From assembly GCA_022813865.1 (NCBI GenBank), contig JALDZX010000005.1:620001-684000 (forward strand): a stretch of DNA of 64,000 nucleotides, given 5' to 3'. A program made the position numbers and the translations under genes. Under the pieces are notes generated by a model. The model saw only the letters and a list, made by a program, of their open reading frames with translations. It was not told the DNA's origin and did not search any database. Each line of letters opens with the position of its first letter. Position 1 is the stretch's first letter. Source of the DNA: Xylographa opegraphella. Its lineage: Eukaryota. Below are positions 1-59,322 of this stretch, one piece after another.

Positions 1-535
1 ACAAGCACTCCTGTTCGAGGATTCTCTGGAGAACAGATTGGCACGAAACAGAAGGTTCGATCACCAGTGATGATGGTCTGGTATATTATTGCGTGAAAGA
101 CAGTCGTTGTTGGCAGACTTCCAGTGCAATGCTTATACTGCTCGATGAGGCAATCCGGTCTTTGACAATTTTGAGATTTGGCGCTAAACCGATATATCCT
201 AGCGTCCGTATGCAGCTTCGCTGCCTCGGAACATATTGCTTGAACCCGCTTCTCATCTCTGCTGTGAATAAGGCAGGCAGAGAATAATACGATGCAGCCC
301 TTTCGTTCCCTCGTTGCAATTACTAATACCTCTTACATTACTTATAAGACTAGTAAACAGAGATTATGGTAGGTACGATATGCATCACAGATGATCGGAT
401 ACAGGCAGATATACTCCAGAGGTAGCCGGACACAAGCAGATTCAGGGGTATCTATCTATCTAATGAATCAAATCATCATGATCTTGCATGCTAGTCATTG
501 GGGTTTATTATTCGCCTGCTGGCCGCTTGGTCCTT

Positions 536-13702: not shown

Positions 13703-16700
13703 TCATGTGTGGGTAGTGTCTCCCAAAACGAGCACACTCTCCGCCCATTTCGTGAGCGCTTTAATGTTTTCCACATCGACAGCCTTCTCGCTGTCGAGGT
13801 CTCCATCTCGGGCCCGCTTCTCCTCCTTTGTGAGTGGCCTATAGCCCCTGCACTCCATCCCGTCGATCATCGTGACAAATTCGATTCTGTCGCCATCGGA
13901 TTTTCCACGATCCTTCCTGTTCTTCACTTTTCCCTCCATGAAAGCAGCGCATAGCTTTTGCACGTAATCCGCCGTCCGTCTAAGCTGAGTTTTCTCGAAC
14001 AAAACCGCATTATTACCTCCCATGTTTTGTTCGTTGAGCCATGTTGTTGTCCAATAACACTGCTTCAAGAGTTTTTCAAAGTCAAAGCCAGCAAAAGCAC
14101 CGAAGTTTTTGGTCATGGTGCATTCATCCACTTTTCGGAAGAATTGTGTATCGGTGACTAACCAATCGTTGACTTGCTTGATTACTTGTTCCTCAGTGAG
14201 ATCTTGTAGCGGCGTCCACGCTCTAGCAGCTTCCATGGCTCGATCTTCGAAAAGCGCAGGGGCATCTGTTACTTGGCAGGCCGAGCCAGGGCCTTCGTTC
14301 TTGGAATCGGACGTGATGCTGTGAGTTGGTAGCAATGACTTTCTCACCCGTTTGCTTTCGATATCGTCCTCGCCGGCTTTTGAATCTGCAACTGGAAGAC
14401 TATTCTGCTTTGGGGTTTCTCGAAGTTGATCATTCCTACTAGAAGTACTTTCGACCGGACCATGTACTTCTTGACCACCACTATGGCTTTGGTTACGCTT
14501 GGTGGATATCGCATCTTCTGGAACCTTCCGTATCAATGGATTTTCCGGCGACGTACTAGCTGTTTTAGCTCGAGGTTTGACCTGAGTACCAGCCCCGTCT
14601 TGCGTTTTCCTCGCCGGCTTTTTCCTTATGAAAGGGTCGACGGGTTTCTTCGGAATTCGTGCAGGTCCAAGTTGTGGCTTTGGCTTGGTAACAGGTTTGG
14701 AAAGTGAAGTTGCCATCGACTTCCCTGGATGGCTTGCAGTTAGCTGTGGCGAGCTAGAATCCTGCTCCTTGATGAGGCTTGCAGGTAGTGTTGCTACTGT
14801 GTTGTCTGCTAAGCTCGGCTGCAATGCCGGTTGTATCAAGGTAGACGAGAGTTTTGATGCTTTCGATGGAGCTCCTCTTCGTTGAGCAAATGGAATTGGG
14901 GTTGCGATAGACCTTACTGTAGATCTTAAAGCAATGTGTTTTCCTGGTTGCTCGACTGTCTGATGTGCGGAAGTGGCTTGATCAAGTTCCGACAGACCAC
15001 AGTTAGAAATGGGGATTTCTTCAGAGCGACTTGCTAGGTCTTCCGTTGTCTGATCCATAGCGTCCGTCGTGGACATTTCCGTCGATGTACTGCCTGCTTG
15101 GGAGCTTTGTGCTGGTCCATACTCGCCAGTCATCCTCGCTGTTGCGTTCGAGGTGTCAATCATGGGTGCCTGTACGAGCCAGGCATTCTCTTCAATTGGA
15201 GCGGCAGGTTTCTCATCCATGGTAGTATCATCCTGCTGAGTCATTACTGCAGCTTTCTGGTCTAAGGATGTGGAGCTTTCTGTAGGACAGCTGACTTGAG
15301 GATTCTCGGTCGTAGGAATCGGTTCCGGTTCGATCATGTGGGTGACAGTTTTGGTGATGGTGACTTCGTTCTCTGGAGCAGAGAAAAAGCTGGCTGTGGC
15401 TTCTGTCGCCATATCCATGCAAGTATTGGACTCCGTTGTCTTCTCCTCGAAATCCGGGATTAGGCAGGACCCATTGTCTTCGGCCATTTCTATAGGAGTC
15501 TCGGCACCAGGTCCTTCCTCCACCGAAATCATGGTCATCGGTACATCCGCCGGACTCACGAAATCTGTATTGGCAGAGGTATCTGTGACGGTTATCATAT
15601 CGTTAGCCGTTAAATCAATCCCCCAAGAGTCCATTAATGTTGTGGTCTCGGTCTCAGGCCCTTGATGGGGCGGTGCATCTTCCATAGTTTGGTCTGCAAT
15701 CTTTGGACTTGTTATATGTTCCGTCGTCCAAATGATACTGATTGATATTATTAGTGACTTGATTTACGAAACGATATTTCAGACGTTTTGCTGATATGGT
15801 CTCACTTACTGAAGGAGCCACAGTTATGATGGTGGCGGCCTGAACCGTGGATTCCTCGGCGATCCTATCAGATAGTTGAGTCTGTTGCGGTCGGTAGATT
15901 AGTTTGGCGGATTCTGAAATGCTGCTGTTCTTCCACTTACTGAAGACGTCGTTGCATCCTCGGTGAACGTGGTTTGCCCGATACCTTCTGTTCCATGATC
16001 AACGTCCATGCCAGTCCACTGTGATTCTGTTTCTCTTCGGGCGTACGAGGCATCCGCTCTTGTCATCGCCCGTTCAAGAGGATTGTAAGTAGGGTTGCTT
16101 GGTCGGATAGTAGTCGTGGAGGAGGTCGAGTCAGCATAACCTGGCACATCTCGCACCCGTCGCTTGGAAATACCGTAATTCTGTGGTCTTCACGGCTGGG
16201 ACGAGGTCTACCGACCTGCCCTGTCGTAGACGATGTGGGTTTTTTAGGGGGGACGGCAAAATAAGACAGATCGAGTCCATAGCTGGTTCCTGCTGGGTTG
16301 GGGATTCTTTCAGGCGAACTCGAACCTTATGTCTTTATATAATCTCCGGAGTTGATTCCATGAAGTTGAGAATATACTAGATCGCCGGAGTTTATTTGAT
16401 CAGGAATATGCGTCACTGCTGGTGGGAAAGCGACTGGCTCGCTACTTGCACTAGTCTCGGAAGCCAGCTCTTCAATCTCTCGAGGAGGGTATGCTGCGTG
16501 AGTAGCAGGCGGCGCTTCCCATCCACCCGGCATCAAAAGTCCATGTTCTAGTCCATTGGGGCTGCGAACTGGCTGTGATCGAAGATTCACTTTCTTCAAG
16601 GGATTGACACCTGCTGGCATAGGAACGGGCACTTCCTTGTAGTATAAATCGCAGTAGTGTTTCAGCTCCAGATACATTGCCCAATGCATACGTCGGGCCT

Positions 16701-20586: not shown

Positions 20587-22206
20587 ATGGCCTCTCTATT
20601 CACGACGTATCATCTGCTTAGAAGGGCGGCACCTAAGGTTTCTAAGGAGTTCTTCACGTGCCAAGCAGCCCGACACACTGCACTAAGACCTCGAAACGTG
20701 CAGCAAATTGTCGAAGACCTTCCGCTTCAAAGAACATTTCGCTCAGGCAAACCCTTTACGCAAACAGCAGTCTCGGGGGTGGGAATATCGTCCGATGCAG
20801 CTTCGCCACTTTCTCCGTTGAACGGAACAATCCGCAATGTTAGAAGGGAGACATCGAGGAAGTCATACTTTCCGGAGACCAGCGACAAAGCTGTCGCATA
20901 CTGGCTTCTAGGTAGTGCAGCCAGTGTGTTCGGACTCGTGGTCTTCGGTGGTCTCACGAGACTCACTGAGTCTGGGTACGCATATTATACGACCGGTTTT
21001 ATATCTTACTAACTGTTTGATAGGCTCAGCATAACGGAATGGCGGCCTGTGACTGGATCATTACCTCCCATGAATGCCACAGATTGGGACTTGGAATTTA
21101 CCAAGTACAGATCATCTCCAGAATTCAAACAATTGAATCCACGAATGACGCTGGAAGAGTTCAAGTCAATATATTACATGGAATGGGGACACCGGCAATG
21201 GGGCCGTGCCGTAGGCCTCACATTCCTGTTACCGGCAGTCTACTTCATCGCACGTAGAAAGGTCTCGGCACCTATGGCGGTCAAGACCATCGGCATCGCA
21301 GGCCTCATAGGATTTCAAGGAGTGTTGGGATGGTGGATGGTGAAATCTGGACTAAAAGATGATCTCTTCGCGCCAGGTAGTCATCCACGAGTCAGCCAAT
21401 ACCGTCTCACGGCTCATCTTGGTACCGCATTCATATGCTACACCGCAATGCTTTGGAATGGGCTGTCTATTTTACGAGAACGCCAGCTGTTGGCTGACCC
21501 TGTTGCTGCGGAGAAGAATTTCTCAATTCTACGAGATCCAAAGCTGAAGATTTTTCGTCGATCAGTTGCAGGTCTGGCAGTACTCGTATTTTGTACAGCC
21601 ATGTCAGGCGGCCTGGTGGCTGGTCTTGATGCTGGGTTGATCTACAATGAATTTCCACAGATGGGACTTAGGTTAACTCCACCTAGGTCCGAGTTGTTCT
21701 CCGATTTCTACTCTCATACGGCTGACGGTAGTGACATATGGTGGCGCAACATGCTCGAGAACCCTTCTTTGGTGCAACTGGATCATCGAATACTGGCAAC
21801 AACCACATTCACGTCCGTGCTGGGCCTGTGGGCATATACCAAGCTCTCGCCCACGTTGAACACAATTTTGCCGGCGGCCTGTAAGAGGGGTATGCATGGT
21901 GTAGTGAGCTTTGTTTGGCTTCAGGTCATCCTGGGCATCAGTACCTTGATATACCTTGTACCTCTTCCACTGGCGTCGGCGCATCAAGCCGGAAGTCTTG
22001 CACTTTTGTCTTCGGTGATGATACTGGGGGGGAGGACATGGGTACCATCTCGAGCTTCCAGGCTTGTAGCTCAAAAATTTGCTAAACCAAGTTCTGCACT
22101 GGAGAGAGCCGTTCCAGATATCCGGTCAGGCTTGCTTAGCCGTCACCCCAAGGTCAGCATTGGTGGGAACGGGAGTAGTATGGGTACAGCAAATCCAGGC
22201 GTTTGA
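20587..22206 (+). CDS. COX15: Heme A synthase Cox15, 2 exons
   Basis: VVFGGLTRLTESG/LSITEW, EFKSIYYMEWGHR, GWWMVKSGL, PRVSQYRLTAHL, GGLVAGLDAGLIYNEFP, VQLDHR, LASAHQAG. Intron about 20976-21023. Confidence 0.95.
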
Positions 22207-31214: not shown

Positions 31215-34200
31215 TCACCCCCCTCCACTAATCACCCTCACATGACTCAACTCCACATCGACACTATTCCTCAGCACATGATGGCTCACCCAGAAGCTAG
31301 CCGTATTAGTCGCCCCAGCATCGGGCGGATTGCGCACCCACTCGAAACTCTTCCGCCCGTCCTCGAACAAGGTGACCAGGCCCGGGCTCACGAGGATCAT
31401 GACGACGACGTAGGGCCCGCCGACGCGCAGGTTCGTCCAGGAGGAGAGGCCGACAAACTCCCAGCCGTCGTAGAACGTCCACTTGGGATTCGGGTCGGGC
31501 AGGATGCGGAAGATGAGGCCGGCGATGATAGCGACCTTGGACTCGTACTGCCCCGACGCGTTGATGCGGAAGCGGTACTGCACCGCGCAGGTGGGGGGCA
31601 GGGGAGCGCTGAGGTTGGTGACGGCGGTGTAGTTATCGCTGGGAGTAAGGTGTTAGTGGGAATTGGAGGAGGGTAGAAGAGGGGGGAGGGATAGGGGAAG
31701 CACGTACACTGTGAGGGAAGGAGTATAGAAGCGCAGGGAGTCGGCGGTGTATGTTGCGGGTATAGCGCCGGTACTGTTGGCGATGTGGAAGAAAGCGGTG
31801 TTGGCTTGCTGGTTGAATTGGTTCAAAATCACCTCCGAAGCCTGGGACCTGAGTTCTGGGAAGTCGCTTTGCAGATGGAAAGCAACGGGGCAGGTGCGGA
31901 AGCCCTTGAGGTCACCGTCGAACACACCCTCACGTTCCCAGACGGTGCAAGAGAGATCGAAAGCGCCGGCGGTATTGATGGCGGTGGGCACCATAGAGAC
32001 GACCTGTTTGCCATCTTCGTAGATGAAAATATTGGTAGGTGTCACGTGGAAGAGGATGTCGTGCCAGACGCCATTCGCGGTAATGGCAGAGACCGTTTGA
32101 GTTTGCCAGTTGCCATTGTTCCAGAGGCACCAATTGACGACGTTGAGGTTGTATCTTAGAGCCAGATTATAATTGGGTTGGGGATTCGTGATGGAGGGGG
32201 CAAGAAACTCGGCGAGGGTGGTGGCTGTCAGAGTATTCCAGCGCATGCTGTAGGCTAAAGTAAACCCTTTGCCTATATCGATCGAGGGGAGACTCCAGCC
32301 CATATTAGCGAACTGACCCCGACCGCTATTCGCGTCGCTCTTGAGTATCTTGAGCATGCCGTTCTGCACACTAAGTTGGATGCCGGTGGTAGATCCTGAA
32401 ATAGAAAACTCTTGCGCTGGTGTACCGGGAGTGTACGAAGTAAGTTGGTTCGAAGCATCGTTAACAACAAGGTTGTAGTGATCGCCACTGGTCGGCTGTA
32501 CTGTATGCCCATTGAACGTTATATAGACTGGCCAAGTGCCACCGACCTGGGCCACGACGTTCACATTGAACTCTCCCAAAACAGTTGAGTCAACCGAGGT
32601 CTGAAATTGTGGTGTTCCGCCACTAACACTACCAACTGATGTCACGACCAGCTGAGTGACTTGCAAGGGTTCCGGTGGCGAGATGAGCACAGAGAACGAC
32701 CCAGCAATGGCCGGCGACTTCTTCGCCGCCCCAAACCAGTCGAGCCCTTGAACAGTGACTGTTGACGCTGGTTGCGTGTTCGTGACTACCACTGGAAGTG
32801 GAGAGCCGCATATTGGAAGAAAATTTGACAGCAGGCGGAGCCGGTATGCCCCCAAGGGGAGTGATGATAGCAAAGTATACTTAGCATTAGTCCGACCTAC
32901 CTGGCTGGCGTCGGCTGCGAACTGCACATCAACAAAATCCAGCGAAGAGGATATCTGAGGGTATACGATCGCAGACTTTATCATTGCAGTATCGTTGGCT
33001 GCCACTCCGAGCTTTTTTGCCTGAAGCACAAAATCGGCTTCGAACGTTAGTCCCGCTGCTCCAATTCCTAAGCCACTCGCACTGTAGTCGAAGTCTGCCA
33101 TCGGCAGCGTAAATGGCGAGCCTTTGATTTGCGTGGCAGCTATGGTAACGTTCATAGTAAAGGTTGTGCTGGGTGGTTGAGGTTGCGGTACATAAGTGAT
33201 AGTATACGATCCGTCCTGATTGTCTGTCACATTTAGAAGCAAGAAAGGCCAGTTCTGGACACCAGTAATGCTGGAGCTTGCCATTACTCTATCTCCACCA
33301 ATCCATTTCCGATTATTGTTGGCGTCTACCGCAAGGACAGTCAGAGTCGAAACATTGTTAAGGGCATAAGAGTCCCAGTTCGCGACTGAATTTGCTGCTA
33401 CAGTTGGGCTTGTAGGTCTGATAACGAAGGGACTTTCCGATATCTCAGTCGTACCAACAGTTATTCTGATGAGATCAGATGTGACGGTAGAGGCGGGAGT
33501 GGTGTACGAGACTCGCAGTCCTTGACCTCGAAGTACTTTCGTAATGTTTGTGCCATGTTTCATGGAGATCGAAATTTGGTCCAGACTTGGCAGACCGGTC
33601 GTGATGACATTACCGTACTGATCCAATGCTACTATATCAAAATGTGAGACTGTAGATGGTGTTGAACTTAGGGAGAGTCCTGGGCCGTATAACTTCGCTT
33701 TTGTTGGTACTGGTGCTGCAGCGACTGTAAATGATATCGGACTTCCATTTATGTTGACAGAGTCATCAGTTGCAGAAGTCGCCTTGATCTGGAAATCTCC
33801 AGCACTATCGATATTCAACTGGACGAAAGACGTGCCATCACCATGATCTGTAAGATTCAATATCTGAGCAATACCGCCGACTTTTTGAAGAGTTAACTTG
33901 AAGCTACCAGCAGTGGCGGTGTCCATCCATAATCCTCCAGACGTATCCTTTGCAGTGATGAAAACCTTTCCCTGGAGACTTGGCGAAGATCCAGCATAAT
34001 ACGGCGGTGCAGACATAGAGAGCGTAGACAACGGGACAGACATAGTCATGACATTTGGTCCAGAGGTAAGGAAGATAGGACATTCTGGTAGCGAAGCATC
34101 GTTTATGAAAATTTTTATAGAATAGGTGACACTCGTTGAGGTAGTCGGTCGTATGTAGGTGACAATGTAGTGGTCAGCTGTTGTTCCAGCAGACGAAGCT

Positions 34201-37200
34201 ATTGCAGAGCTCGTCCCGCCCGTAACCAGCAGTGATGCCTAAGAGATTATTAGAGATACATTTCAAAGACAAGATTTTTGAATATAGCTTAACACACTCT
34301 GCAAGTAACGCCATTCATAAATGGTTGTCCCATCTGATCTTTGATGTAGACATCGAAAGTAGCAGTTGTTCCTTCTTTACCAGAGCATAGTCCCAGTCCT
34401 CCGGCTATAGATTTAGTTACATCTGGCATGAGAACTGTGGTGAATGATCCAGGAGACTGAGTAATACTAGTAGAGGTGCTTGCTAATTTGGCTGTCATCT
34501 GGTACGATGTACCAACAGATTGGGGCAACAAGAACCCTACCCGTATGTTGTCATTGTAGTATGTAAATGTTGGGACACCAGGTATGACCGGGCTGAAGGT
34601 AACGTCGAATGCATCTCGGTCATTGATGCCAAGACGAGCGTTATTGAAATTGTCTTTTGGCCAGATGGTTGCGTAGTTGACTACACCGGCGAGTAGATTT
34701 GCGGATACATCCAAGACCGAATTCGCCGAAAGCGTACTGCTTGTACTAGTCACAGTGCAGTTTATGTCTGCCGTGTAGCTCACAGCGGGAGGTCCTGCAG
34801 CATTGTATGTTATGTGTATTGTGTATTCTCCAGCTTGTCCGGGGCGTGAATACAAGCCAGAATAGCCACCGCGGCCAATACCAGTGAAAGTCGAAATTGT
34901 ACTTAGAGTGACCGATGCCTTTTGAATACTCACCACGAGATTTGCTGGATTGATGGGCAGCGGCTGCCGGTTTGTTTTCTTTGGATATATAAGAATTTCC
35001 ACACTTTCGGACGCTATTCCGTTTGATAGACCTGTACCTCCTATAACCCACGTCCCTGTAGTAGAGTCAGGACTGCTGTTCTCATTGCTGTTGTCATTCT
35101 GATCGCTGTCGTTAGTAGATACACTATCAGAATCGTCGTCGGAGTCGTGGTCATAGCCAAACACTTTCTTCACTGCATTCCATACGGCACTTATCCCTTG
35201 ACCGAGGGCAACAAGCTACACAGAACGATTAGTATATTTCACACTGGAGGTCGGCAGCCAGTATTGAGCAATTTTTGGGCAACATACACTGACTCCAACG
35301 GCTAGCGCCTCGCCAAGGCCAACAATGTCTAGTATAATCAAGCATAGCTTTTCGAGGTCTGATACGAATTCCAACAATTTCTTACACATACGATATACTT
35401 CTCCTATATCAATACCCCATATTCTCAAGGGTCCATCAGGTAACTCGTAGCTCACGGGAATGGTAATACCGAAAACTACAGCATCCCCTTCCAATATGCC
35501 TTCTGCGGCTAGTTGTACCGTTGCCCGGCTCACGGACAAGGTCATTGTCGGCTTCCGTATTTTTGCAATTGTAGGGGCGAAAGAGGTCAGAACCAGTTCG
35601 TCCAAGACTGTGGTGAATGAGCCACGCCCAAGAGAGTAGTTCATCGAGAAGGATAACTGGTCGCATGTCGGCCAGAATGTTCCAGGAAGAGAGAAACGAC
35701 CAGCAGTTGCAGCGTAAACAGCATCGACAAAACTGCAGTGATCAAGTATAAGGTCACACCGCAGTACGCTTGCTTTCGCAGTCATGTGCATGGCTATAGC
35801 TCCAGGAGAACCTCTGGGGCGTTGATAAGTGAGCGATCCATTTAGGATAGCGTTCAATGATGGTGTGCTAGAAATGTTGCTCAAATTTAATTCCATGTTG
35901 ATACCGGTCAACACAAGGGTTGGATCAACGATTTTCCATTGGAATCCTGGAGTGGTTCCTACAGTGACTATCAAAGTCTCTGGCCTATAGTCACCATTCA
36001 CATTACTGAATGTGATCTCCGCTGTCCCGATCAGGCCTGACGCATACCCTGCAAGACCCGTACCCGAAGTTAAGCTTGGAGGTTCTAACGAAGGATTGTT
36101 CAGGCCACCTGCAACAAATTTAGCAAACAACGGACTGACCCCAGACCCTACAAGGCCTGATATCACCAATATATTGGCTTCAGCGTTGAAGACTGCCTCT
36201 AGACCTACAACGGCAGTCCCGATAGTGGTTATACCCCTGAAAACAGCCGACGGCTTTGATTGAGTATCATACTTGGCGATGAGCTGCACATTCGTAATGG
36301 ACAGTTGACGAGTACCATCACCCACTATCCACGACTGGGTACTGATAGCATTGAATCCTAGGTCAACTTTGCGCAAGGTCCAGGGAGCATCTCCAGTTGC
36401 TGGTTGGCAATAGATATCGAGAACCAAAGATGCAGTCGAATTGGTCAAGTTAACAGGGCATCCACTAGGTATGGTAATAGTGGCCGATTCACCGGTCCCC
36501 AGTAAAGTGGAAATGAGTATTGAAGCACTGACTGCGTCGCTCGTGCTGACATTGAGAGTGATCTTTAGCCAGCCAACTCTGGCTGGGTCGTCACTCGCAG
36601 CCAAAAGCTTGATAACTGCATTGAGGTTGATGTTGGTGCCAATCTGAACAATACCAGTCGCCTGCAGCGTATACTGTCGTCCGGTCTCGGAGAGAGGATT
36701 AGCTATTGCCAATTCTAAAGATGCCTTTACCAGTGTGATCTTCGAAGAAAGAATGATCCAACTACTCGTTTGGGAATTTATACTGAAGGACAGGTTGGAC
36801 AGGGAGTATGCTGTTGTAGAAGCTGTTCTGGAAACCTTAGCAGAACATCGTAAAGTGGGCCCGGGTGAATTGACTAGGTCAGCTGGCTGGATCGGATAAG
36901 CGGCTTTTGTAACGCAGAATGGTCAGCCTTTGAAATGAATGAACGCTGAAGCTGAACCAATGAAAGAATACAAATCCATACCTGGCAGTTTCCCGCTCAA
37001 ATCTGATACGTTAATTGAGTTACCTCCGAACTGCGAAAAGCGACTGACAATCGATGGCGGCACAACAACTGTTGTCACAGCCGCGACTTTGGGTTTGACC
37101 TCAACATCCAGAGTATACTCCATCGGCGAATTCTGGTTTCTCTCGATTCTGGCTTTGAAAGCCAGCACATAGGTAACGTTTTGTAAGATGGTCTCACATT

Positions 37201-39649
37201 TACCGGAAAGTTCCGTCCAACCGGAGAATGGATCCGTAGTAGCAGCCTTTCTCATATACACCTGGAGGGTAATGCCAGTAGTCAATACTACACCGCTATA
37301 CACATTCCATTGGCCGCTCACAGCAAGGCTCAATGCCAATATGGACATAAACAGTGAACTAGACGATGTGGGACTGCGAGTGAATTGAGCGCGGAGTTGA
37401 ACTTGGGCTGAAGCTAAAGCACTAGAGACAGTGGTAGGGAACTCCGGCAATCCCCACTGATCTGTTGGAATCACACGACCAAGGAAAGCAGTGTTCTGTA
37501 GCACGGTATTAGAAACCAGACCTAGCCGGCTACCTGGCTCTGTATATATGCTAAGGCCTGCCCAAAATGTAGTGGTGGGATCTGATGTGGGCGTGTTTGT
37601 GGCATACATACTGCTCCCGGCCACGAAAATATAGAGCTTCGCCAGGCCAGTAATTTGTAAAGTGCCATAAACATAGCCAGTAATAGTTTTTGCGCCGACA
37701 TTCGAGCTCTGTGGGTTAGTTAGATCGAACATGATTCCCATTTGGGTTATATTCAATGCAGAAGTTATTGCCCAAACCCCGTCAAATTTTGACGTGATCG
37801 TCAGTCTACTGAGTGTATCACCATGGTAAGTCAGCCAGACAGATCGATTTGTGCCCGTTGTGGTATCGCTGACCAATGATAGACTCAGGGGAGACTGTGT
37901 AGGCGCCGGCTTAGTTGCAGCCACGTCCACGAGGTTTACAGGGGTCGCACCGGGCGCAGCGAAAATAACATCCGATGCAAGAGCATTCAATGGTGGGCAA
38001 TGGTCGTGTAGAACATTCGCAAATAGCCTCAGAAAGGGTGAAGTCGCGGTATTATTATATGCAATCTCCACCAAGACTGGAAACTGGTTATTGTATAATG
38101 CGAAAGTCCCATGGATGCGGCCATCACAAGTCCAGGATGTCGTCGTAGTTGTAACGGTAGTCGTTAAGGCGTGAACATCGTTGTCCTGAGACTCCAACTT
38201 CGACTTGTCGTGCAACAGCAGTGAGACAGGCGAACTCTTCGCAGTATGTATTCCAGGTACGGTCATCGTAGTGGATAGTTCTGTATCATGGCGAGTTGCT
38301 GATAAGCTTAAACGTATATTACCTACCTCGATCTTGAGCGATTCGTTGTTGCCGAACGCAGGGCTAGTCCAGACCACTCCAGGTAGGAAAATGTGCACAT
38401 TCACGTTAGCTATGTACCAGGTTGCTCCTGCTGCTGAACCTTTCTGTAGCACTATAGAAGCCGACGTTGGCGCCCCACCGTCCCCATATCCGTCAAGATA
38501 ATACGAATAGTATTTCATTGATGGGGGGAGCTTGGATATGAGGGTACTGGCACTGGATGTTGAAGTTGATGGAACAAGCGCGTCTATGAACGCCTTGCTG
38601 CTTAAGCCTTGTTCGGCATCGGCGCCTATTCGAAGTGTGAGTGTCGAAGCTTGGGCGGTGGTGAAGTGACAAGTCACTTGGAGATGTATTGGATCCGCCT
38701 TGCCTATATTGATTTCCAGGGAGCCGCCAACGTGAATATCATATGTCCACGCCGCATCAGCCGTGGTTCGTTGTATTTGCGCAAGCACAGAAAGTCCGGT
38801 AAGCGTAAGGTTGGCGACCGGGGCCCAATCAATGCCTGCTTCAAACGAGAAGCCGACACGCTCCAAGAAATACACACCGGCGGAAGTACGATGAACTTGG
38901 AAATCAGCACTAGTGACAAGACTGGCCTCATCCGTGAGACTGGATTTAATGTTTCCATCTAATACAGCCGTCAGAGTATCATAGGTAACACCACTGGATG
39001 ATCCGAGCGCGGTCGTAATACCAGCGACAAAGTCGGCGCCAACGATCTCATCTAATGGATTCGCAAGGCTGAAGTTGAAGGTGAAGACTGTGTCATTGGA
39101 GGACTGAATCTCAGGTAGATCAGCACTGACATTGAATACTATATTCTTTATTGTGCAGGTCGCACTAAGCTGAATAGAGATTGAGAGATCGGCTGCAAGT
39201 AGCAGTCAGCATTCGGTCGAGTTAGGGGACGTCCTGGTACATAGGATGGGTAGTAAAATGGATACAGTACAGGCATCATCCGAATCGCCTTCGAAGTTTA
39301 TTGCAATCCAAGCATCATCTAAACTGAGGCCGGTCACAATGCTCCATGAGCCGACGAGATAGACAGTCAAGGAGCCTTGGTATTGGTATGCAAGAGTGGC
39401 TGAAGGTTTTGGCGCCGGTACTGGATTTGGGGTGGGCAGGTAAGGAAACGCAACATAGGCTCGAGTGTCATCCAGTACGGTAGCAACCGCCGTGCTTAAC
39501 GCGCGGACATCTGCATCACCAGCGGCATTACCTAGGGTAAACGTGGGAATCCCATCGCGTACTCCCAGAGGCTTCAATCTAGGAGACTCTGAGGCGAAAT
39601 TAGAATTGTCCTCGAAAGGTTTGTCAATGAAATCAGGCTCTTGTGCCAT
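31215..39649 (-). CDS. Giant protein of about 2,690 aa: Trp-anchored beta-rich repeats, amphipathic/hydrophobic helical segment, acidic linker, filamin/Ig-like repeats, two ConA/LamG-like domains; 6 exons
   Basis: Five GT-AG introns (39193-39270, 36904-36981, 35216-35293, 34239-34297, 31639-31707) join the minus-strand ORFs in phase, giving 8073 nt = 2691 codons including the stop. Filamin-type motifs include AKLYGPGL..FDIVALDQYGN, VTDNQDGSYTITYVP..IKGSPF and SIAGGLGL..ATFDVYIKDQMG. Lectin-like segment: ITANGVWHDILFHVTPTNIFIYEDGKQV. Confidence 0.8.
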
Positions 39650-50973: not shown

Positions 50974-52134
50974 TCACTCTTCCCCTTCATAAAAGTTCCC
51001 CCCCACCTTCCCCAACAAATGCTTCCCGTACACCACCTCCCCCAACCTCTCCACGCCCCCACTCTTCGCCACACACTCCTCCAACGGCCTCACCCGCGCC
51101 TCGAAATCCGGCTCCACGAAGAACGGCACACTGACCCGGAACCCCTCCCCCCGATGCACGACCCGATGCCTCGTGCTCCGCCACAGGCCGTTCGTCCAGC
51201 GCTCCATCATATCCCCGATGTTAACCACCAGCGCCCCCTCCACCGGATCGGCCGCAATCCAGCCCTCCCCTCCCTTCCCCTGCACCTGCAACGCCCCGCG
51301 CGTCTCATCCGCCAGCAAAAGCGTCAAGCACCCATAGTCCGTATGCTCCCCGCACGAAACACCCCCCTCCCCCCCCGCCGGCAGAGGCGGATAGCCAATC
51401 GCGCGCATCACCCAAAAGCTGTCGCGACACTTCCCCACAAAGAACTCCCGATCGCGCAACCCCAGCGCCCAGCCCATGGCGCGCAGCACGCCCTCCCCGA
51501 GCCGCAGCACCTCCCTCACATAGAGCTCATACACGTCGCGGAACTCCGCGGGCCGGTCCGGCCACAAGTTAACGCCGCGCAGCAGCTGAAAGGGCGGGAC
51601 GCGGCCGAGGGCGTCCTCGCGGAGCACGAGCGGCTTGCCCTCGGGGTCGAGGAGGGGCCCGTCGGCGCCGCCGCGCTGGCGCAGGCGTGCGAGGCCGTAG
51701 GGCCCGTAGATGCGCACGAAGGTGAGCTCCTTGCCGGTGAGGCCGTGCTCCTCCGCGGGCAGGACGGGCCGGTACCAGTCGATGGCCTCGTGGGCGTCGC
51801 GCTGGCCGCCGGTGACGTTCGTGGATGGGGGTTGGTAGCCGCGGGCGCCGTCGCCGTAGCCGTGGCCGGGGGCTTGGCGCGTGATGAGACGCTTCTCGAG
51901 CGGGGTGGCGGTTGTGAAGAAGGTGCGGGCGAGGGAGAGGACGCGGGTGGTGAGGGCGGGGGGCAGGCCGTGGTGGGTGAGGTAGAAGAAGCCGTGGGTG
52001 GTGCAGGCGGTATGGAGGCAGGTGGCGCAGGCGGTGAGAGCCGAGGGGGAGGAGGGGGAGAGGAAGGAGGAGATGTCGATGAGGGGGAGGGACGGGCTCG
52101 AAAGGTTGGTTGTGGGGTTCGGTGTCGAACTCAT
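50974..52134 (-). CDS. 2-oxoglutarate/Fe(II)-dependent dioxygenase (isopenicillin N synthase-like, DIOX_N + 2OG-FeII_Oxy)
   Basis: LPLIDIS..ACTTHGFFYLTHHGL, RGYQ, NLWP, GEHTDYGCLTLL (HxD), VVNIGDMMERWTNG..STRHRV (distal H), RVSVPFF (RxS). Single exon. Confidence 0.93.
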   Translation of the reverse strand: MSSTPNPTTNLSSPSLPLIDISSFLSPSSPSALTACATCLHTACTTHGFFYLTHHGLPPALTTRVLSLARTFFTTATPLEKRLITRQAPGHGYGDGARGYQPPSTNVTGGQRDAHEAIDWYRPVLPAEEHGLTGKELTFVRIYGPYGLARLRQRGGADGPLLDPEGKPLVLREDALGRVPPFQLLRGVNLWPDRPAEFRDVYELYVREVLRLGEGVLRAMGWALGLRDREFFVGKCRDSFWVMRAIGYPPLPAGGEGGVSCGEHTDYGCLTLLLADETRGALQVQGKGGEGWIAADPVEGALVVNIGDMMERWTNGLWRSTRHRVVHRGEGFRVSVPFFVEPDFEARVRPLEECVAKSGGVERLGEVVYGKHLLGKVGGNFYEGEE

Positions 52135-52411
52135 CCCGGGTGGAAAAGTTCTCAGTTCACGAGAGATTTCGTCAAGTGGATAACATGGATTATTGAGGGT
52201 AGACTAATCGAGGTGTCTATATTTTTGTAGATGATGGGATATCGTAATTTCATACTATCTCTAAATAGGTAGTTATCTACCCCAGCACCCGGCAGGATTG
52301 TATATAAACCGAAAACTGCCACCAAAATTCACACCTGCGTATAATCGTAGGTTATTCAGCCCGCTAAATGCAGAAACTAACTTTTGGCGTTTTGGTTCAT
52401 ATCGCAGTCGC

Positions 52412-57428: not shown

Positions 57429-59322
57429 TCAATAGCTGAAGTCTTCATACACAACTTCCTTTCCAGCTACCCATTGGAGGAGGCTCTTCTTGAGCGCTGT
57501 CCCGGTGCAGATGTACCACTTATCTGAAATGTCCAGATCCACTTCAAGATCCTTGGCCATTATTCGCCGTCTAGCCACCCTTGAGCACATGGATTCTACC
57601 ACTGCCATTGAAGCTTGTTCTGAAGCAACGTCATGGAGGTTGCTGCTCGATACGAATAAGGAGGTCGAAGATGCTAAAGCCGGTACTCGTTGAAATGTTG
57701 CGAGCACTAGCCCGATGTCTTGGATGTTGATAGTCCAGAACAAGTGTAGTCCATTCAAATCCAGATGTGAGACTTGACCAAGCAAAGGCGTGATCCCTAT
57801 ACCGCCAGCCACAACAGGTGTAATTTTACCCGCCCGCTGCTCTATCACAAACTCCCCTCCGAAGCCTTTGAGCGGCACTTCAAGGCCTGCACGCACATTC
57901 TGTCTAAACATGAAATTTGTAACGACACCGACATTACGGATAGTGATTTCGAATTCATCGTCAGGCAACTCGGCCCCATTTGGAGGAGATGAAAGTGTAA
58001 ACGTACGCATGTAATCGTCGTTGAGGCTTCTCGGGTCATCATCTCGCATGTGGCTGTAACCTGTACTAAGCTCGTTTTCAAATGACAAAGCGACGTACTG
58101 CCCAACTTTCCAACGACCAGTAGCAATAGGGTCGCTGATACCGAAGTGGAAACGTGCTATGGTGGGTGTCAGGACTTCTCGTTTGAGCAACTTTGCGTTC
58201 ACGCGGGATATTTCGTTTTCATGTGGTATTGCCGCTCCTCCTTCAGTTGCTAAGTATCGAACAGCTGGATTGTACGGGGATCTCTCGCCTGCTATACCTC
58301 GAAATGACAAGCCGGTCTCAACAAAACGAGCCTCTTGTACTAAAATTTTGACGACTAGCTTCGACTTCGGTATGACGGCTGCAGCATCTCGTCCCGCTAT
58401 TATTTCTGTGGTTGCTGTCAGGTACAGTACGTCGCCGTTCTCGAAATTCGGAAAGACTAATCCAGCTTTAGATGACACTTGTAAATTACCAAGCGTTTGG
58501 TAGAAGCGGTTCCCAGAATATTCAGGGTAAACCAATGTGACACCGTCACTGCTGTTTGACATGACACGAACAAAACCAGGAGAACCACCACGATGATTCG
58601 TGCTCATACAAGATCTTTCGTCCGAAGAAGTTAAGAAGAATAAATCAGCTTTGTGGAGAAGCTCAAGTGCTTGGCATGACAATGGAAAGGCTGAGGATAT
58701 TAATTTTGGTGACGGCGGTACCGAACTTAACTCTTTCTTGTTCAAATATTTAGGGCAATTTCCTGACACGTGTGAGCCGGTTACCATTTGTAGTCCGTAC
58801 AGATAGATCATACCTACCCAAACTGGAGTCGACCTTGAGTACGACCTGCGCTTCCCCTATCTTACCGTCCTCGCCTGATGTCTGCAGTCTTGTACGATCA
58901 AGAGCACCGGCTATGACATGTCCAGAGAACTTAAGTCGTCTTCTAGCTGCCAGATCTATTGCCAATCCTGCGAGTGAGCGCCCCGCAATCCCTTTCTCTG
59001 TAATCTGACCACCCGCTTGGTGGCCTAGCAGAGTTTCCACGATTGGATCGTACTGCTTATCGACAAGAGTCTTGATCCCAAGGGTTGACGAACCCAAAGA
59101 CTGTAGAAAGCCAGCCTCACCGCCCCAGAGGGTTGTCCACAGTCGGCCCCCAAGGTCATGTGTCCCTATAGCGAGTAACGGGGCCGTCTGAAGGAAATTT
59201 CCTCCGCCAGGGGTAAGACATGGATAAGTTGGATTCTCCATTGATAGGTCATTGTGCATGAGCGAGTGCATCTTTTGCTCACCTTCATGCCAACCAGTAT
59301 TACCCAGATATATGTTTGCCAT
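57429..59322 (-). CDS. Oxidoreductase with pyridoxamine-5'-phosphate-oxidase-like FMN-binding region and ferredoxin-reductase-type FAD/NAD-binding domain, 2 exons
   Basis: GWHEGEQKMH, LWTTLWGGEAGF, SLG/NCPKYLN, NHRGGSPGFVRV, YPEYSGNRFYQTLGNL, RTFTLSS, VAGGIGITP, terminal YEDFSY. Intron about 58752-58812. Confidence 0.9.

What the first reader, a model, noticed from the sequence alone, without database searches (positions are those of the whole stretch)
35450..39400. About eight Trp-anchored beta-strand repeats forming the N-terminal half of the giant protein
Seen: a recurring unit every 150-190 aa or so with the pattern W-x(3-8)-L-x-L followed by alternating hydrophobic strands: GSWSIVTGLSLDDAWIAINF, IDWAPVANLTLTGLSVLAQI, VVWTSPAF..IEVGNIRLSL, GVWAITSALNITQMGIMFDL, GQWNVYSGVVLTTGITLQV, SSWIILSSKITLVKASLELAI, QSWIVGD..LSITNVQLIAK, FQWKIVDPTLVLTGINMELNL. 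No N-terminal signal peptide is evident (MAQEPDFIDKPFEDNS). Inference: an extended beta-sheet rod, possibly a repeating beta-groove like AsmA/TamB/VPS13 bridge-like lipid-transfer proteins, or a DUF6603-related fold.
Basis: partly seen in the sequence, partly recalled or inferred. Interest (0 to 1): 0.7.

Follow-up and report, generated by a model that had tools for sequence, protein, structure and literature searches.

The report
Repeated beta-sheet rod, fungal giant protein
The first half of a 2,692-residue, intron-split gene of a lichen-type fungus is built from eight clear (plus one decayed) related tryptophan-anchored beta-sheet units that appear to join into one long two-faced sheet, in a protein family that has no name, no known function and no solved relative.

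Summary
All eight motifs lie in one frame of the MINUS strand. The gene is eukaryotic (39649 to 31215, six exons, five GT..AG introns). The in-frame stops sit inside introns. The closest relatives are 2,624-2,673-aa hypothetical proteins of Xylographa, 79-83% identical over exon 2.

13 of 28 unit pairs reach probability 70% or more, the best at 97% and E 1e-11. All 28 reversed controls stay at 3.1% or less. A query window not anchored on Trp finds the seven other units at the expected offsets. The anchor Trp is present in 218 of 234 unit sequences.

AlphaFold models (pLDDT 84 and 81, pTM 0.75 and 0.70) show about six short amphipathic strands plus short helices per unit. Fold searches return only weak matches to long curved up-and-down sheets.

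No Pfam family matches the N-terminal 1,400 residues. A hydrophobic groove of the RBG kind is plausible but untested, because no coordinates were available. The link to DUF6603 is weak. This looks like a new repeat family whose function is only inferred.

The parts
31215..39649 (-). Whole gene: six exons, five introns. The spliced product is 2,692 aa, from ATG at 39649 to the stop at 31215-31217.
   Evidence: Splice model. The exon junctions agree with the annotated Xylographa orthologues P0003-P0005.
39271..39649 (-). Exon 1 (residues 1-126 plus one base). It holds the N-terminal extension with a conserved helix-like stretch, and the start of unit 1.
   Evidence: No signal-like hydrophobic stretch.
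39193..39270 (-). Intron 1: 78 nt, GTACTG...CTGAC...CAG, phase 1. It contains the in-frame TGA at 39208.
   Evidence: P0003 and P0004 read DDASDLSIS across this junction.
36982..39192 (-). Exon 2 (residues 127-864). It holds the second half of unit 1 and units 2-5.
   Evidence: AF2 model m9ba049e928c9, pLDDT 83.9, pTM 0.75.
36904..36981 (-). Intron 2: 78 nt, GTATGG...CTGAC...AG, phase 1. It contains the in-frame TGA at 36925. The acceptor is the least certain, because the orthologue annotations differ here.
   Evidence: P0005 supports this acceptor, while P0003 is annotated with a later one.
35288..36903 (-). Exon 3 (residues 864-1402). It holds units 6-9 and a long helix.
   Evidence: AF2 model m2f3d1ad61ba6, pLDDT 81.2, pTM 0.70, helix at exon-3 residues 499-537.
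35216..35287 (-). Intron 3: 72 nt, GTATGT...ACTAAT...TAG, phase 0. It contains the in-frame TAG at 35218.
38930..39442 (-). Unit 1 (residues 70-214, spans intron 1). Anchor Trp102 at 39344-39346.
38480..38929 (-). Unit 2 (residues 215-364). Anchor Trp249 at 38825-38827.
37862..38479 (-). Unit 3 (residues 365-570). It is longer because of a low-confidence insertion between two 26-residue strands. Anchor Trp401.
37412..37861 (-). Unit 4 (residues 571-720). Anchor Trp600.
36887..37411 (-). Unit 5 (residues 721-869, runs across intron 2). Anchor Trp755.
36437..36886 (-). Unit 6 (residues 870-1019). Anchor Trp912.
36044..36436 (-). Unit 7 (residues 1020-1150, shortened). Anchor Trp1055.
35690..36043 (-). 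Unit 8 (residues 1151-1268, shortened). Anchor Trp1186.
   Evidence: (best partner is unit 6, 72.4% over 41 columns).
35399..35689 (-). Unit 9 (residues about 1269-1365), degenerate. This copy has no Trp at the anchor column, while 13 of 18 homologues have one.
   Evidence: Strands. Partial unit-HMM hit at 1305-1363. Best hhalign probability 36%. Column counts.
35162..35407 (-). Long helix running into the most hydrophobic segment of the protein (residues about 1363-1420, spans intron 3). It is a candidate membrane anchor or packing helix.
   Evidence: Helix. The top Kyte-Doolittle 19-residue window of the whole protein is 2.26 at residue 1383. A comparable segment follows the repeat array in most of the 11 homologues checked.
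35048..35152 (-). Acidic, low-complexity linker (residues about 1424-1458).
32613..35047 (-). Filamin-type Ig-like repeat region (exons 4 and 5, spans intron 4 at 34239-34297).
   Evidence: PF00630 at 69.6 bits against a cut-off of 26.9. Weak Invasin_D3 and Ig_GEX2_N hits. Filamin and gelation-factor chains are the only hits in the PDB sequence search.
31215..32585 (-). C-terminal region with a weak concanavalin-A-like (Laminin_G_3) match. It includes intron 5 (31639-31707) and exon 6 (31215-31638).
   Evidence: PF13385 at E 0.0018 and 18.9 bits, below the 27.6 cut-off. Exon 6 was recognised from the orthologue C-termini.

Best explanation
The interval encodes, on the minus strand, the N-terminal 1,365 or so residues of a spliced 2,692-aa protein. 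The organism is a filamentous ascomycete close to Xylographa (lichen-forming Lecanoromycetes).

Shown:
- This half consists of eight clearly homologous tandem units of about 131-206 aa, plus one degenerate unit.
- In the models each unit has about six short (mostly 9-13 residue) antiparallel strands in an up-and-down meander, followed by one to three short helices.
- A near-invariant Trp sits at the hairpin between the second and third strand.
- The strands are two-faced. One face is 73% hydrophobic and 4% charged. The other is polar, rich in Thr, Ser, Asn and Gln.
- Consecutive units are laid by structural aligners onto single continuous sheets.

Inferred:
- The units join edge to edge into one long, curved, single-layer amphipathic sheet of more than 50 strands. 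It is capped by a conserved N-terminal helix and a long C-terminal helix.
- The short helices are too few to cover the hydrophobic face. That face is therefore buried by the curl of the sheet or left as a hydrophobic-lined groove or tube.
- In construction this resembles repeating-beta-groove and beta-taco lipid bridges. I think the most likely job is to hold or conduct hydrophobic material, or to lie on a membrane.
- The hydrophobic helix that follows (about residues 1383-1417) would tie the array to a membrane, probably with the N-terminus in the cytosol.
- The acidic linker, the filamin-type Ig stalk and the lectin-like end would project from the other side as a binding arm.

The structural part of this statement I hold at about 0.8. 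The groove/conduit function I hold at about 0.3. The single confidence value given for this explanation (0.5) is a compromise between the two.
For: Gene model:
- The stops lie inside GT..AG introns with CTGAC, ACTAAT or ACTAAC branch-like motifs.
- The junctions match the annotated orthologues.
- The neighbouring genes are eukaryotic or fungal: Rap1, Cox15, the fungal KCH channel and DUF747.

Family:
- 36 representatives at E <= 1e-3, 29 at <= 1e-10 and 9 at <= 1e-30.
- 6 of the 10 clusters looked up carry an organism name: Oidiodendron, Fusarium, Lophiostoma, Echria, Aspergillus and Trichoderma.
- The N-terminal region is collinear over about 1,390 profile positions.
- A filamin domain is present in 7 of the 12 longer members scanned.

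Repeat:
-, as set out in the observation check.

Structure:
- pLDDT 83.9 with pTM 0.75, and pLDDT 81.2 with pTM 0.70, with regular blocks of strands followed by helices.
- The hydropathy difference between the two strand faces is 2.66. Shuffled strands give 1.50 +/- 0.15, with a maximum of 1.97 in 200 shuffles.

Hydrophobic helix:
- It is the top hydropathy window of the whole protein, it sits directly after the repeat array, and this placement recurs in homologues.
- The flank before the helix is basic and the flank after it is acidic (sequence).

RBG features:
- Taken from passages of Levine 2022, PMC7613979.
Against: - No coordinates were available. Continuity of hydrogen bonding across units, which face is concave, and whether a cavity exists were never seen directly.
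- No RBG protein appears in any top-50 list. For the TamAB entry 9xdc the listed best chain is the 544-residue chain A, which I take to be TamA, not TamB.
- The unit has six strands, not five plus a crossing loop, and the strands are short for a deep U-shaped groove.
- No Pfam model of VPS13, ATG2, Chorein_N, Fmp27, Apt1, AsmA or TamB is matched.
- The hydrophobic helix carries Asp and Glu in its first half.
- N-glycosylation sequons are not enriched in the C-terminal half (12 seen, 14.5 expected). That half has only 9 Cys. An extracellular C-terminal arm is therefore unproven.
- The alignments used for folding were shallow (41 and 23 rows).
Confidence: 0.5

Rival explanations
1. Fungal counterpart of the bacterial DUF6603 giant-protein system. 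The repeat array would be a remote relative of the Trp-anchored repeats that precede the PF20248 domain in Pseudomonas-type DUF6603 proteins. The fungal protein would fuse the 'body' with an Ig-like 'arm' and a lectin-like 'tip' that bacteria encode as separate genes. The function is unknown in both. This reading does not exclude the groove reading.
For: - The ESM Atlas nearest named cluster for both exon 2 and exon 3 is one in which 24% of members carry PF20248 and half the recorded taxa are Ascomycota. The scores are 0.83 and 0.80, which makes them leads only.
- The unit HMM scores 20.5 bits on the 1,513-aa DUF6603 protein of L020, against at most 7.3 bits in 205 reversed or shuffled controls. 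The GxW hairpin is aligned.
- hhalign of the pooled unit profile against the Pseudomonas family gives 48.6% and 39.4% (E 2e-4 to 3e-4), against 0.5% for the reversed template.
- The bacterial protein has its own internal repeat (93.8%).
- Earlier unchecked notes of this scan describe Ig-like arms with variable tips in DUF6603 cassettes.
Against: - PF20248 itself matches 0 of 41 family members at E <= 0.1. The positive control scores 445 bits.
- The other 4 of the 5 fetched DUF6603 proteins are not above the controls.
- Full-length profile against profile gives probability 2.1% and 0.4%.
- The unit HMM score carries a large bias term (48.0).
- The neighbours of the bacterial genes show no Ig or lectin Pfam domains.
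Confidence: 0.25
2. A string of separate small beta domains (sandwiches or closed 6-8-stranded barrels of the calycin/avidin kind, each anchored by a GxW motif), with no continuous sheet or groove. This would be a stalk or spacer.
For: - GxW at the start of a strand recalls the lipocalin and avidin signatures (recalled, not tested).
- Avidins align at rmsd 3.3-3.7 A over 105 of 115-119 residues.
Against: - pTM 0.70-0.75 over 538-736 residues argues for a fixed mutual arrangement.
- Aligners thread 13-19 consecutive strands of two to three units onto single sheets.
- No Ig-like or sandwich domain family stands out.
Confidence: 0.12
3. A giant membrane-embedded beta-barrel or pore-forming sheet. 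The hydrophobic face would point to lipid and the polar Thr/Ser/Asn face would line a lumen.
For: - Both Foldseek and VIA-align lists are dominated by transmembrane barrels: TonB-dependent receptors, porins, VDAC, Tom40, BamA/TamA, ushers and SprA.
- Strand lengths of 9-13 residues with strict alternation.
- Trp lies at strand ends.
Against: - TM-scores are 0.10-0.15 and rmsd is 6-15 A.
- From my own knowledge, membrane beta-barrels in eukaryotes are known only in mitochondrial and plastid outer membranes.
- There is no targeting signal.
- Helices are inserted after every six strands.
- Few aromatic residues lie on the hydrophobic face (23 Phe among 291 residues).
Confidence: 0.06
4. Not a working gene: a pseudogene with nonsense mutations, or a prokaryotic gene read with a recoded stop.
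For: There are four in-frame stops under table 11.
Against: - The stops are of three kinds (TGA twice, TAG, TAA), so no single reassignment explains them.
- Each lies in a 59-78 nt GT..AG interval that the orthologue proteins skip.
- The exons are open for 126-843 codons and are 79-83% identical (over exon 2) to three species' proteins.
- The window is fungal.
Confidence: 0.02

Closest known systems
Repeating beta-groove (RBG) bridge-like lipid transfer proteins: VPS13, ATG2, SHIP164, Hobbit, Tweek (Levine 2022, PMC7613979; passages read)
   Same: - Tandem units of about 150 residues built on an up-and-down beta meander with six groove-crossing elements per unit, so that each unit starts where the last ended.
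- A sheet with one hydrophobic and one hydrophilic face.
- Helices at both ends of the array.
- No signal peptide.
- Accessory domains appended.
   Different: - The sixth element is a strand, not a helix-plus-loop that crosses back, and the strands are short.
- There is no Chorein_N-like first unit and no match to any RBG Pfam model.
- No RBG structure appears in the fold-search lists.
- All named members are filamentous ascomycetes, rather than spread across all eukaryotes.
- The array is followed by a hydrophobic helix, an Ig stalk and a lectin-like end.
- The groove itself was not seen.
Bacterial beta-taco and beta-jellyroll lipid conduits (TamB 5vtg, Lpt proteins) and large amphipathic lipid-binding sheets (lipovitellin 1lsh, MTP 8eoj)
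   Same: - Short-stranded antiparallel sheets with a hydrophobic inner face.
   Different: - The scores are in the range the tool calls a common arrangement.
- There is no sequence relationship.
- These proteins lack the 145-aa repeat with helices and the Trp anchor.
Pfam DUF6603 (PF20248) giant bacterial proteins, function unknown
   Same: - A GxW-x-[IV]...L-x-L hairpin followed by alternating strands recurs in the N-terminal part of a Pseudomonas-type DUF6603 protein and at the start of the later part of its PF20248 domain.
- There are weak but above-control unit-HMM and hhalign signals.
- They are giant proteins without export signals (earlier notes, unchecked).
   Different: - The PF20248 model does not match the fungal family.
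- The full profile comparison gives probability 2.1%.
- Only 1 of the 5 bacterial proteins tested gives any signal.
Transmembrane beta-barrels (VDAC, Tom40, porins, TonB-dependent receptors)
   Same: - A long up-and-down meander of 9-13-residue amphipathic strands.
   Different: - rmsd is 6-15 A and TM-score 0.10-0.15.
- There is no evidence of closure.
- Helices follow every six strands.
- The protein is cytosolic-type and eukaryotic.
Filamin/ABP280 Ig-like repeats with lectin-like ends (filamin, Dictyostelium gelation factor; stalk-and-tip layout of invasin/intimin and GEX2-type proteins)
   Same: - The C-terminal half matches PF00630 above its cut-off.
- It weakly matches Invasin_D3, Ig_GEX2_N and Laminin_G_3.
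   Different: - This concerns the other half of the protein, not the finding itself.
- No actin-binding domain, beta-barrel anchor or C-terminal transmembrane segment of those families is present.

Membership tests
RBG superfamily (VPS13/ATG2/SHIP164/Hobbit/Tweek) | The repeating unit is a five-stranded beta meander plus a sixth element (a helix, then a loop crossing back). Unit size is 150 residues or more (Levine 2022, PMC7613979, passages). | tested here: not met
   DSSP of both models shows about six strands per unit (sometimes a seventh of 3-5 residues), followed by 1-3 short helices. Units are 131-206 aa. The number of crossing elements (six) is the same, but the sixth is a strand.
RBG superfamily (VPS13/ATG2/SHIP164/Hobbit/Tweek) | A continuous groove whose concave face is hydrophobic and whose convex face is hydrophilic. 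| not testable with these tools
   No coordinates are returned. The sequence-level proxy is met: one strand face is 73% hydrophobic and the other 32%, a difference of 2.66 against 1.50 +/- 0.15 in shuffles.
RBG superfamily (VPS13/ATG2/SHIP164/Hobbit/Tweek) | The first unit is homologous to Chorein_N, or the protein matches the family's Pfam models. | tested here: not met
   No such Pfam family matched in the 5 exon translations at E <= 1, nor in 41 family members at E <= 0.1. This is HMMER sensitivity only.
RBG superfamily (VPS13/ATG2/SHIP164/Hobbit/Tweek) | Structural match to solved RBG or beta-taco proteins. | tested here: inconclusive
RBG superfamily (VPS13/ATG2/SHIP164/Hobbit/Tweek) | The ends of the array are capped by amphipathic helices. 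| tested here: inconclusive
   The models show a long helix at exon-3 residues 499-537, directly after the last strands. A conserved helix-like stretch precedes unit 1 in the sequence. How these helices lie relative to the sheet is unknown.
Pfam DUF6603 (PF20248) | Match to the PF20248 model above its 27-bit cut-off. | tested here: not met
   0 of 41 family members matched at E <= 0.1. The positive controls score 445 and 401 bits.
Pfam DUF6603 (PF20248) | Remote homology between the profiles of the two families. | tested here: inconclusive
   - The unit HMM scores 20.5 bits on 1 of 5 bacterial proteins, against at most 7.3 bits in 205 controls.
- The pooled-unit hhalign gives 48.6% and 39.4%, against 0.5% for the reversed template.
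- Full-length profiles give 2.1% and 0.4%.
Filamin/ABP280 repeat (PF00630), C-terminal half only | Match above the Pfam gathering score. | tested here: met
   69.6 bits against a cut-off of 26.9 in exon 5, and 28.4 bits in exon 4. The PDB sequence search returns filamin and gelation-factor chains down to E 1.3e-9.
Concanavalin A-like lectin/glucanase (Laminin_G_3, PF13385), C-terminal end | Match above the Pfam gathering score. | tested here: inconclusive
   E 0.0018 and 18.9 bits, against a cut-off of 27.6. 2 of 41 family members match at E 0.016.
Transmembrane beta-barrels (porin/VDAC type) | A closed barrel with a lipid-facing hydrophobic exterior. | not testable with these tools

The most novel reading that the evidence does not exclude
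This would be a sixth, lineage-restricted kind of eukaryotic bridge-like protein. A hydrophobic-lined conduit or platform of more than 50 strands and 15-25 nm is built from a previously undescribed six-strand Trp-anchored unit. It is tied by a transmembrane helix to an Ig-stalk and lectin arm on the other side of the membrane. It may descend from the bacterial DUF6603 giant-protein system through ancient transfer into filamentous ascomycetes. That would give the DUF6603 machines their first structural reading.
Probability: 0.15. Interest if true: 0.8.

Novelty: new variant of a known kind. Interest (0 to 1): 0.55.

Why it matters
Bridge-like lipid transfer proteins are described as five ancient eukaryotic families (Levine 2022). 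A further rod-building beta repeat would show that this architecture was invented or acquired again. This one is confined to filamentous ascomycetes and is fused to a membrane helix and a binding arm. It would also offer a compact, testable case.

Even if the function is different, three things follow:
- The work defines a new repeat domain: a 143-column unit with an invariant Trp, and no Pfam family.
- It gives a confident model for about 1,300 residues of proteins that are annotated only as hypothetical in Xylographa, Oidiodendron, Fusarium, Lophiostoma, Echria, Aspergillus and Trichoderma.
- It gives a first, weak handle on the widespread bacterial DUF6603 proteins.

There is also a practical lesson for the scan. 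Three frame-preserving introns (78, 78 and 72 nt) make a fungal gene look like one bacterial giant ORF.

Tried and rejected
- Plus-strand reading: no long ORF there. The motifs are on the minus strand.
- Recoded stop codon or pseudogene: rejected. Three different stop codons are involved, and all lie in GT..AG introns that the orthologues skip.
- blastp of the N-terminal 1,450 residues against itself at E <= 10: only the identity hit.
- hhalign self-comparison mode: it returned no rows, so I used cut segments instead.
- Pfam on the exons and on 41 members: nothing for the first 1,400 residues.
- PDB sequence search with the family profile: only filamin-type hits to the C-terminal half.
- Foldseek against the PDB: 2 hits at E <= 1e-3 for exon 2, both with TM-score 0.11. 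There were none for exon 3.
- Lipocalin/avidin-type separate barrels: the avidin alignments take strands from two units and rank below the porins.
- ESM Atlas: low recognition (1133 and 1433). The top hits are unnamed bacterial clusters, and no structure search was possible.
- Whole-genome tools: no genome is held for this window.
- DUF6603: see the rival explanation. Four of the five fetched proteins gave no signal above the controls.
- Pfam on the neighbours of three bacterial DUF6603 genes: no Ig or lectin domains.
- Literature: the full-text library has 0 papers for 'DUF6603' and 0 papers for six locus tags of family members. One unrelated paper came up for filamin + Pezizomycotina + hypothetical protein.
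- Earlier notes of this scan by place and by sequence: nothing.

Full report
**Where the feature is**

No long ORF exists on the plus strand. A six-frame search puts the quoted N-terminus and all eight quoted motifs in one frame of the minus strand, starting at the ATG at 39649.

Under table 11 that frame is broken by single stops at 39208 (TGA), 36925 (TGA), 35218 (TAG) and 34291 (TAA). The DNA around each stop shows a short interval that begins with GT and ends with AG. Each interval carries CTGAC, ACTAAT, CTAAT or ACTAAC shortly before the AG.

Removing five such intervals (78, 78, 72, 59 and 69 nt) gives an open 8,079-nt coding sequence of 2,692 codons. The first three introns are multiples of three. 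That is why the frame runs on through them and the gene can be mistaken for one bacterial giant ORF.

**Which organism it comes from**

- A word-based search with exon 2 finds one 788-aa metagenome ORF. That ORF is a read-through call into both introns.
- Among longer proteins, the search finds three NCBI hypothetical proteins of Xylographa pallens, X. soralifera and X. trunciseda. They are 2,624-2,673 aa and 79-83% identical over exon 2.
- Their sequences skip exactly my introns 1, 3, 4 and 5. At intron 2, one annotation (P0005) agrees with my acceptor and another (P0003) uses a later one.
- Xylographa belongs to Lecanoromycetes, Baeomycetales.
- Other ORF pieces of the window match Rap1, Cox15, the fungal KCH potassium channel, DUF747 and similar families.
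- No prokaryotic genome is held for the window, and the window has no tRNA gene.

The window is therefore a fungal chromosome segment.

**The family**

An exhaustive HMMER search of 1.84 billion representatives with exon 2 gives 36 proteins at E <= 1e-3, 29 at <= 1e-10 and 9 at <= 1e-30.

Of the 10 clusters looked up, 6 carry an organism name: Oidiodendron maius, Fusarium tjaetaba, Lophiostoma macrostomum, Echria macrotheca, Aspergillus nanangensis and Trichoderma virens. All are annotated as uncharacterised. That these all belong to Pezizomycotina is my own knowledge, not a tool result.

The N-terminal region aligns collinearly over about 1,390 profile positions. Pfam finds nothing in it: nothing in the five exon translations at E <= 1, and nothing in 41 members at E <= 0.1. 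Filamin repeats are found downstream in 7 of the 12 longer members scanned, and in 9 of the 41.

**Is the repeat real?**

Plain blastp of the region against itself shows nothing. The repeat is old and diverged.

- 13 of 28 pairs have probability 70% or more. The best pairs are 2-5 (97.4%, E 1e-11), 1-5 (97.3%) and 1-2 (97.2%).
- The alignments run in register from the first columns over up to 147 columns.
- Each unit has at least one partner at 72% or more. Unit 8 is the weakest, with 72.4% to unit 6 over 41 columns.
- The 28 controls with the second profile reversed reach at most 3.1%.

To avoid any bias from cutting at the Trp, I searched arbitrary 171-181-residue windows of the profile against the whole profile. 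The window 190-370 finds seven further places at offsets -147, +149, +351, +504, +658, +803 and +936. Five have probabilities of 73-96% and two have 31-40%. These are the positions of the other seven units.

A 143-column unit HMM was built from 234 unit sequences of all members. It hits the window protein nine times in tandem between residues 82 and 1363. This is partly circular and serves only as a map.

In that alignment the anchor Trp (column 36) is W in 218 of 234 sequences.

A ninth unit (about residues 1269-1365) is visible as a further block of strands. Its sequence support is weak: best hhalign probability 36%, and a partial HMM hit. The window's own copy lacks the Trp there.

**What the units look like**

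AlphaFold2 models were made for the two large exons with family alignments.
- Exon 2: 736 aa, 41 rows, mean pLDDT 83.9, pTM 0.75.
- Exon 3: 538 aa, 23 rows, mean pLDDT 81.2, pTM 0.70.

DSSP shows a regular pattern. Each block has about six strands, mostly 9-13 residues long. Two strands in unit 3 have 26 residues, and some units have an extra 3-5-residue strand at the Trp. Each block is followed by one to three short helices.

The Trp lies at the turn between the second and third strand. After the last block comes a helix of at least 39 residues (exon-3 residues 499-537).

Strands make up 321 of 736 and 260 of 538 residues (my count). I assigned alternate strand residues to two faces.
- One face is 73% hydrophobic and 4% charged (Leu, Ile, Val, Ala, Phe).
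- The other face is 32% hydrophobic and 20% charged (Thr, Ser, Asn, Gln).
- The hydropathy difference is 2.66. Shuffled strands give 1.50 +/- 0.15, with a maximum of 1.97 in 200 shuffles.

**Fold comparison**

Foldseek against the PDB gives only marginal matches.
- Exon 2: 2 hits at E <= 1e-3, a Fiu model and HasR, both with TM-score 0.11.
- Exon 3: none at E <= 1e-3.
- Matches are to TonB-dependent receptors, porins, LptD, SprA and RHS/teneurin shells.

VIA-align over 48,161 representative chains gives the following.

Partial matches with better rmsd are:
- MTP, LolA and LptF/G;

What I take from this is limited but useful. The aligners can thread 13-19 successive strands from several units onto one continuous up-and-down sheet. 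No sandwich or Ig-like domain family stands out. No solved structure is a clear relative. Together with pTM 0.70-0.75, this favours one continuous, curved sheet over a string of independent domains.

The positive criterion, a continuous hydrophobic groove, could not be examined because no coordinates are returned.

**Comparison with the RBG proteins**

I read passages of Levine 2022 (PMC7613979). They define the RBG unit as:
- a five-stranded meander plus a sixth element (a helix, then a loop crossing back), of 150 residues or more;
- a hydrophobic concave face and a hydrophilic convex face;
- a first unit homologous to Chorein_N;
- amphipathic helices capping both ends;
- five families, all present in the last eukaryotic common ancestor.

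The fungal unit shares several of these features:
- the size;
- the count of six crossing elements;
- the two-faced sheet;
- helices at both ends.

It differs in others:
- its sixth element is a strand;
- its strands are short;
- it matches no RBG Pfam model;
- every member with an organism name is a filamentous ascomycete.

I therefore do not file it as an RBG member. It may still work like one.

**The DUF6603 idea**

The ESM Atlas gave, for both exons separately, the same nearest named cluster. It is a 203-aa cluster in which 24% of members carry PF20248 and half the recorded taxa are Ascomycota. The scores were 0.83 and 0.80, with low recognition values, so these are leads only.

I found PF20248 in 7 of 401 genomes of one bacterial phylum and fetched five giant ORFs. 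The results were as follows.
- The fungal unit HMM scores 20.5 bits on one of them, a 1,513-aa Pseudomonas-type protein. Reversed, shuffled and locally shuffled controls (205 in all) reach at most 7.3 bits. The other four proteins are not above the controls.
- The aligned pieces lie mostly N-terminal of the PF20248 domain. They show the same order: a GxW hairpin, alternating strands, a Gly-containing strand, then a helix-like stretch.
- With 12 relatives of that protein, hhalign of the pooled unit profile gives 48.6% and 39.4% (E 2e-4 to 3e-4), against 0.5% for the reversed template.
- The full-length fungal profile against the bacterial family gives only 2.1% and 0.4%.
- PF20248 itself matches none of the 41 fungal members.
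- The neighbours of the bacterial genes have no Pfam domains.

The link is possible but unproven. Earlier unchecked notes of this scan describe DUF6603 cassettes with Ig-like arms and variable binding tips. That layout resembles the C-terminal half of the fungal protein, but I did not test those notes.

**The rest of the protein**

The most hydrophobic 19-residue window of the whole protein (Kyte-Doolittle 2.26) begins at residue 1383. It lies in the continuation of the long helix, directly after the repeat array. In most of the 11 homologues checked, the top window lies at the equivalent place.

The window has a charge-free core of about 22 residues, a basic flank before it and a strongly acidic linker after it. 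Asp and Glu occur in its first half. No N-terminal signal-like segment exists in any of the 12 proteins examined.

Downstream come filamin-type Ig-like repeats (PF00630, 69.6 bits). There are weak Invasin_D3 and Ig_GEX2_N matches, and a sub-threshold concanavalin-A-like match.

Sequons are not enriched in the C-terminal half, and Cys is scarce. An extracellular position for that half is therefore only a hypothesis.

**Most likely working**

The repeat structure, the strand pattern, the amphipathicity and the domain order are shown. What follows is inferred.
- Nine units form one long curved amphipathic sheet of more than 50 strands.
- Its hydrophobic face cannot be covered by the roughly 116 helix residues available. 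It is therefore either curled on itself or open as a groove or tube.
- Such a surface would hold or pass hydrophobic material, or would lie on a membrane.
- The following hydrophobic helix would anchor the array. By the charge distribution, the N-terminus would be in the cytosol.
- The Ig stalk and lectin-like end would form a binding arm.

I put about 0.8 on the structural statement and about 0.3 on the conduit function. The rivals are a fused DUF6603-like machine of unknown function (0.25, not exclusive), separate small domains (0.12), a membrane barrel (0.06) and a dead gene (0.02).

**Novelty**

The orthologues are already in public databases, but only as hypothetical proteins. The full-text library holds no paper with 'DUF6603' and none with six locus tags of family members. 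One unrelated paper was found for filamin + Pezizomycotina + hypothetical protein.

The repeat unit is not in Pfam and has no clear solved relative. In construction it is nearest to repeat-built beta-sheet rods. I rate it a new variant of a known kind, with moderate to good interest. The main open point is a look at the coordinates.

Noticed in passing
window 39193-39270, 36904-36981, 35216-35287: The first three introns of the giant gene are 78, 78 and 72 nt long. All are multiples of three, so the reading frame continues through them. The gene then looks like one giant bacterial ORF with in-frame TGA, TGA and TAG. The metagenome protein P0002 (788 aa) is such a read-through gene call.
   Followed up: yes
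window 7184-10094 (+), 10604-12241 (-), 21049-22206 (+), 60022-62125 (+): Table-11 ORF lists cut fungal genes at introns. The DUF747 membrane protein is split into two ORFs, and so is Rap1 (BRCT + Myb, and Rap1_C). There are also pieces of the KCH potassium channel and Cox15. These show that the window is a fungal chromosome with ordinary housekeeping neighbours and no obvious gene cluster around the giant gene.
   Followed up: partly
window 50001-52000: A GC-rich block (GC 0.61 against about 0.48 elsewhere) carries long overlapping ORFs on both strands, 50875-52230 (+) and 50974-52134 (-). Neither has a Pfam match.
   Followed up: no
window 13703-15685 (-), 57429-58811 (-), 41408-42487 (+), 40444-41070 (-): Four long ORF pieces (660, 460, 359 and 208 aa) have no Pfam match. 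The last two flank the giant gene's upstream side.
   Followed up: no
L020:3671-8209 (+): The Pseudomonas-type DUF6603 protein has its own internal repeat N-terminal of the PF20248 domain. Segments 321-480 and 481-620 match at hhalign probability 93.8%. GxW...L-x-L-type hairpins occur in its N-terminal part. The later part of the PF20248 domain begins with a similar Trp hairpin.
   Followed up: partly
P0026 (Aspergillus nanangensis, 3,186 aa) and P0033 (Trichoderma virens, 1,564 aa): These family members share the N-terminal repeat array but have no filamin match. Their most hydrophobic segment lies elsewhere (residue 2204 in P0026). The C-terminal half of the family therefore seems exchangeable.
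   Followed up: no
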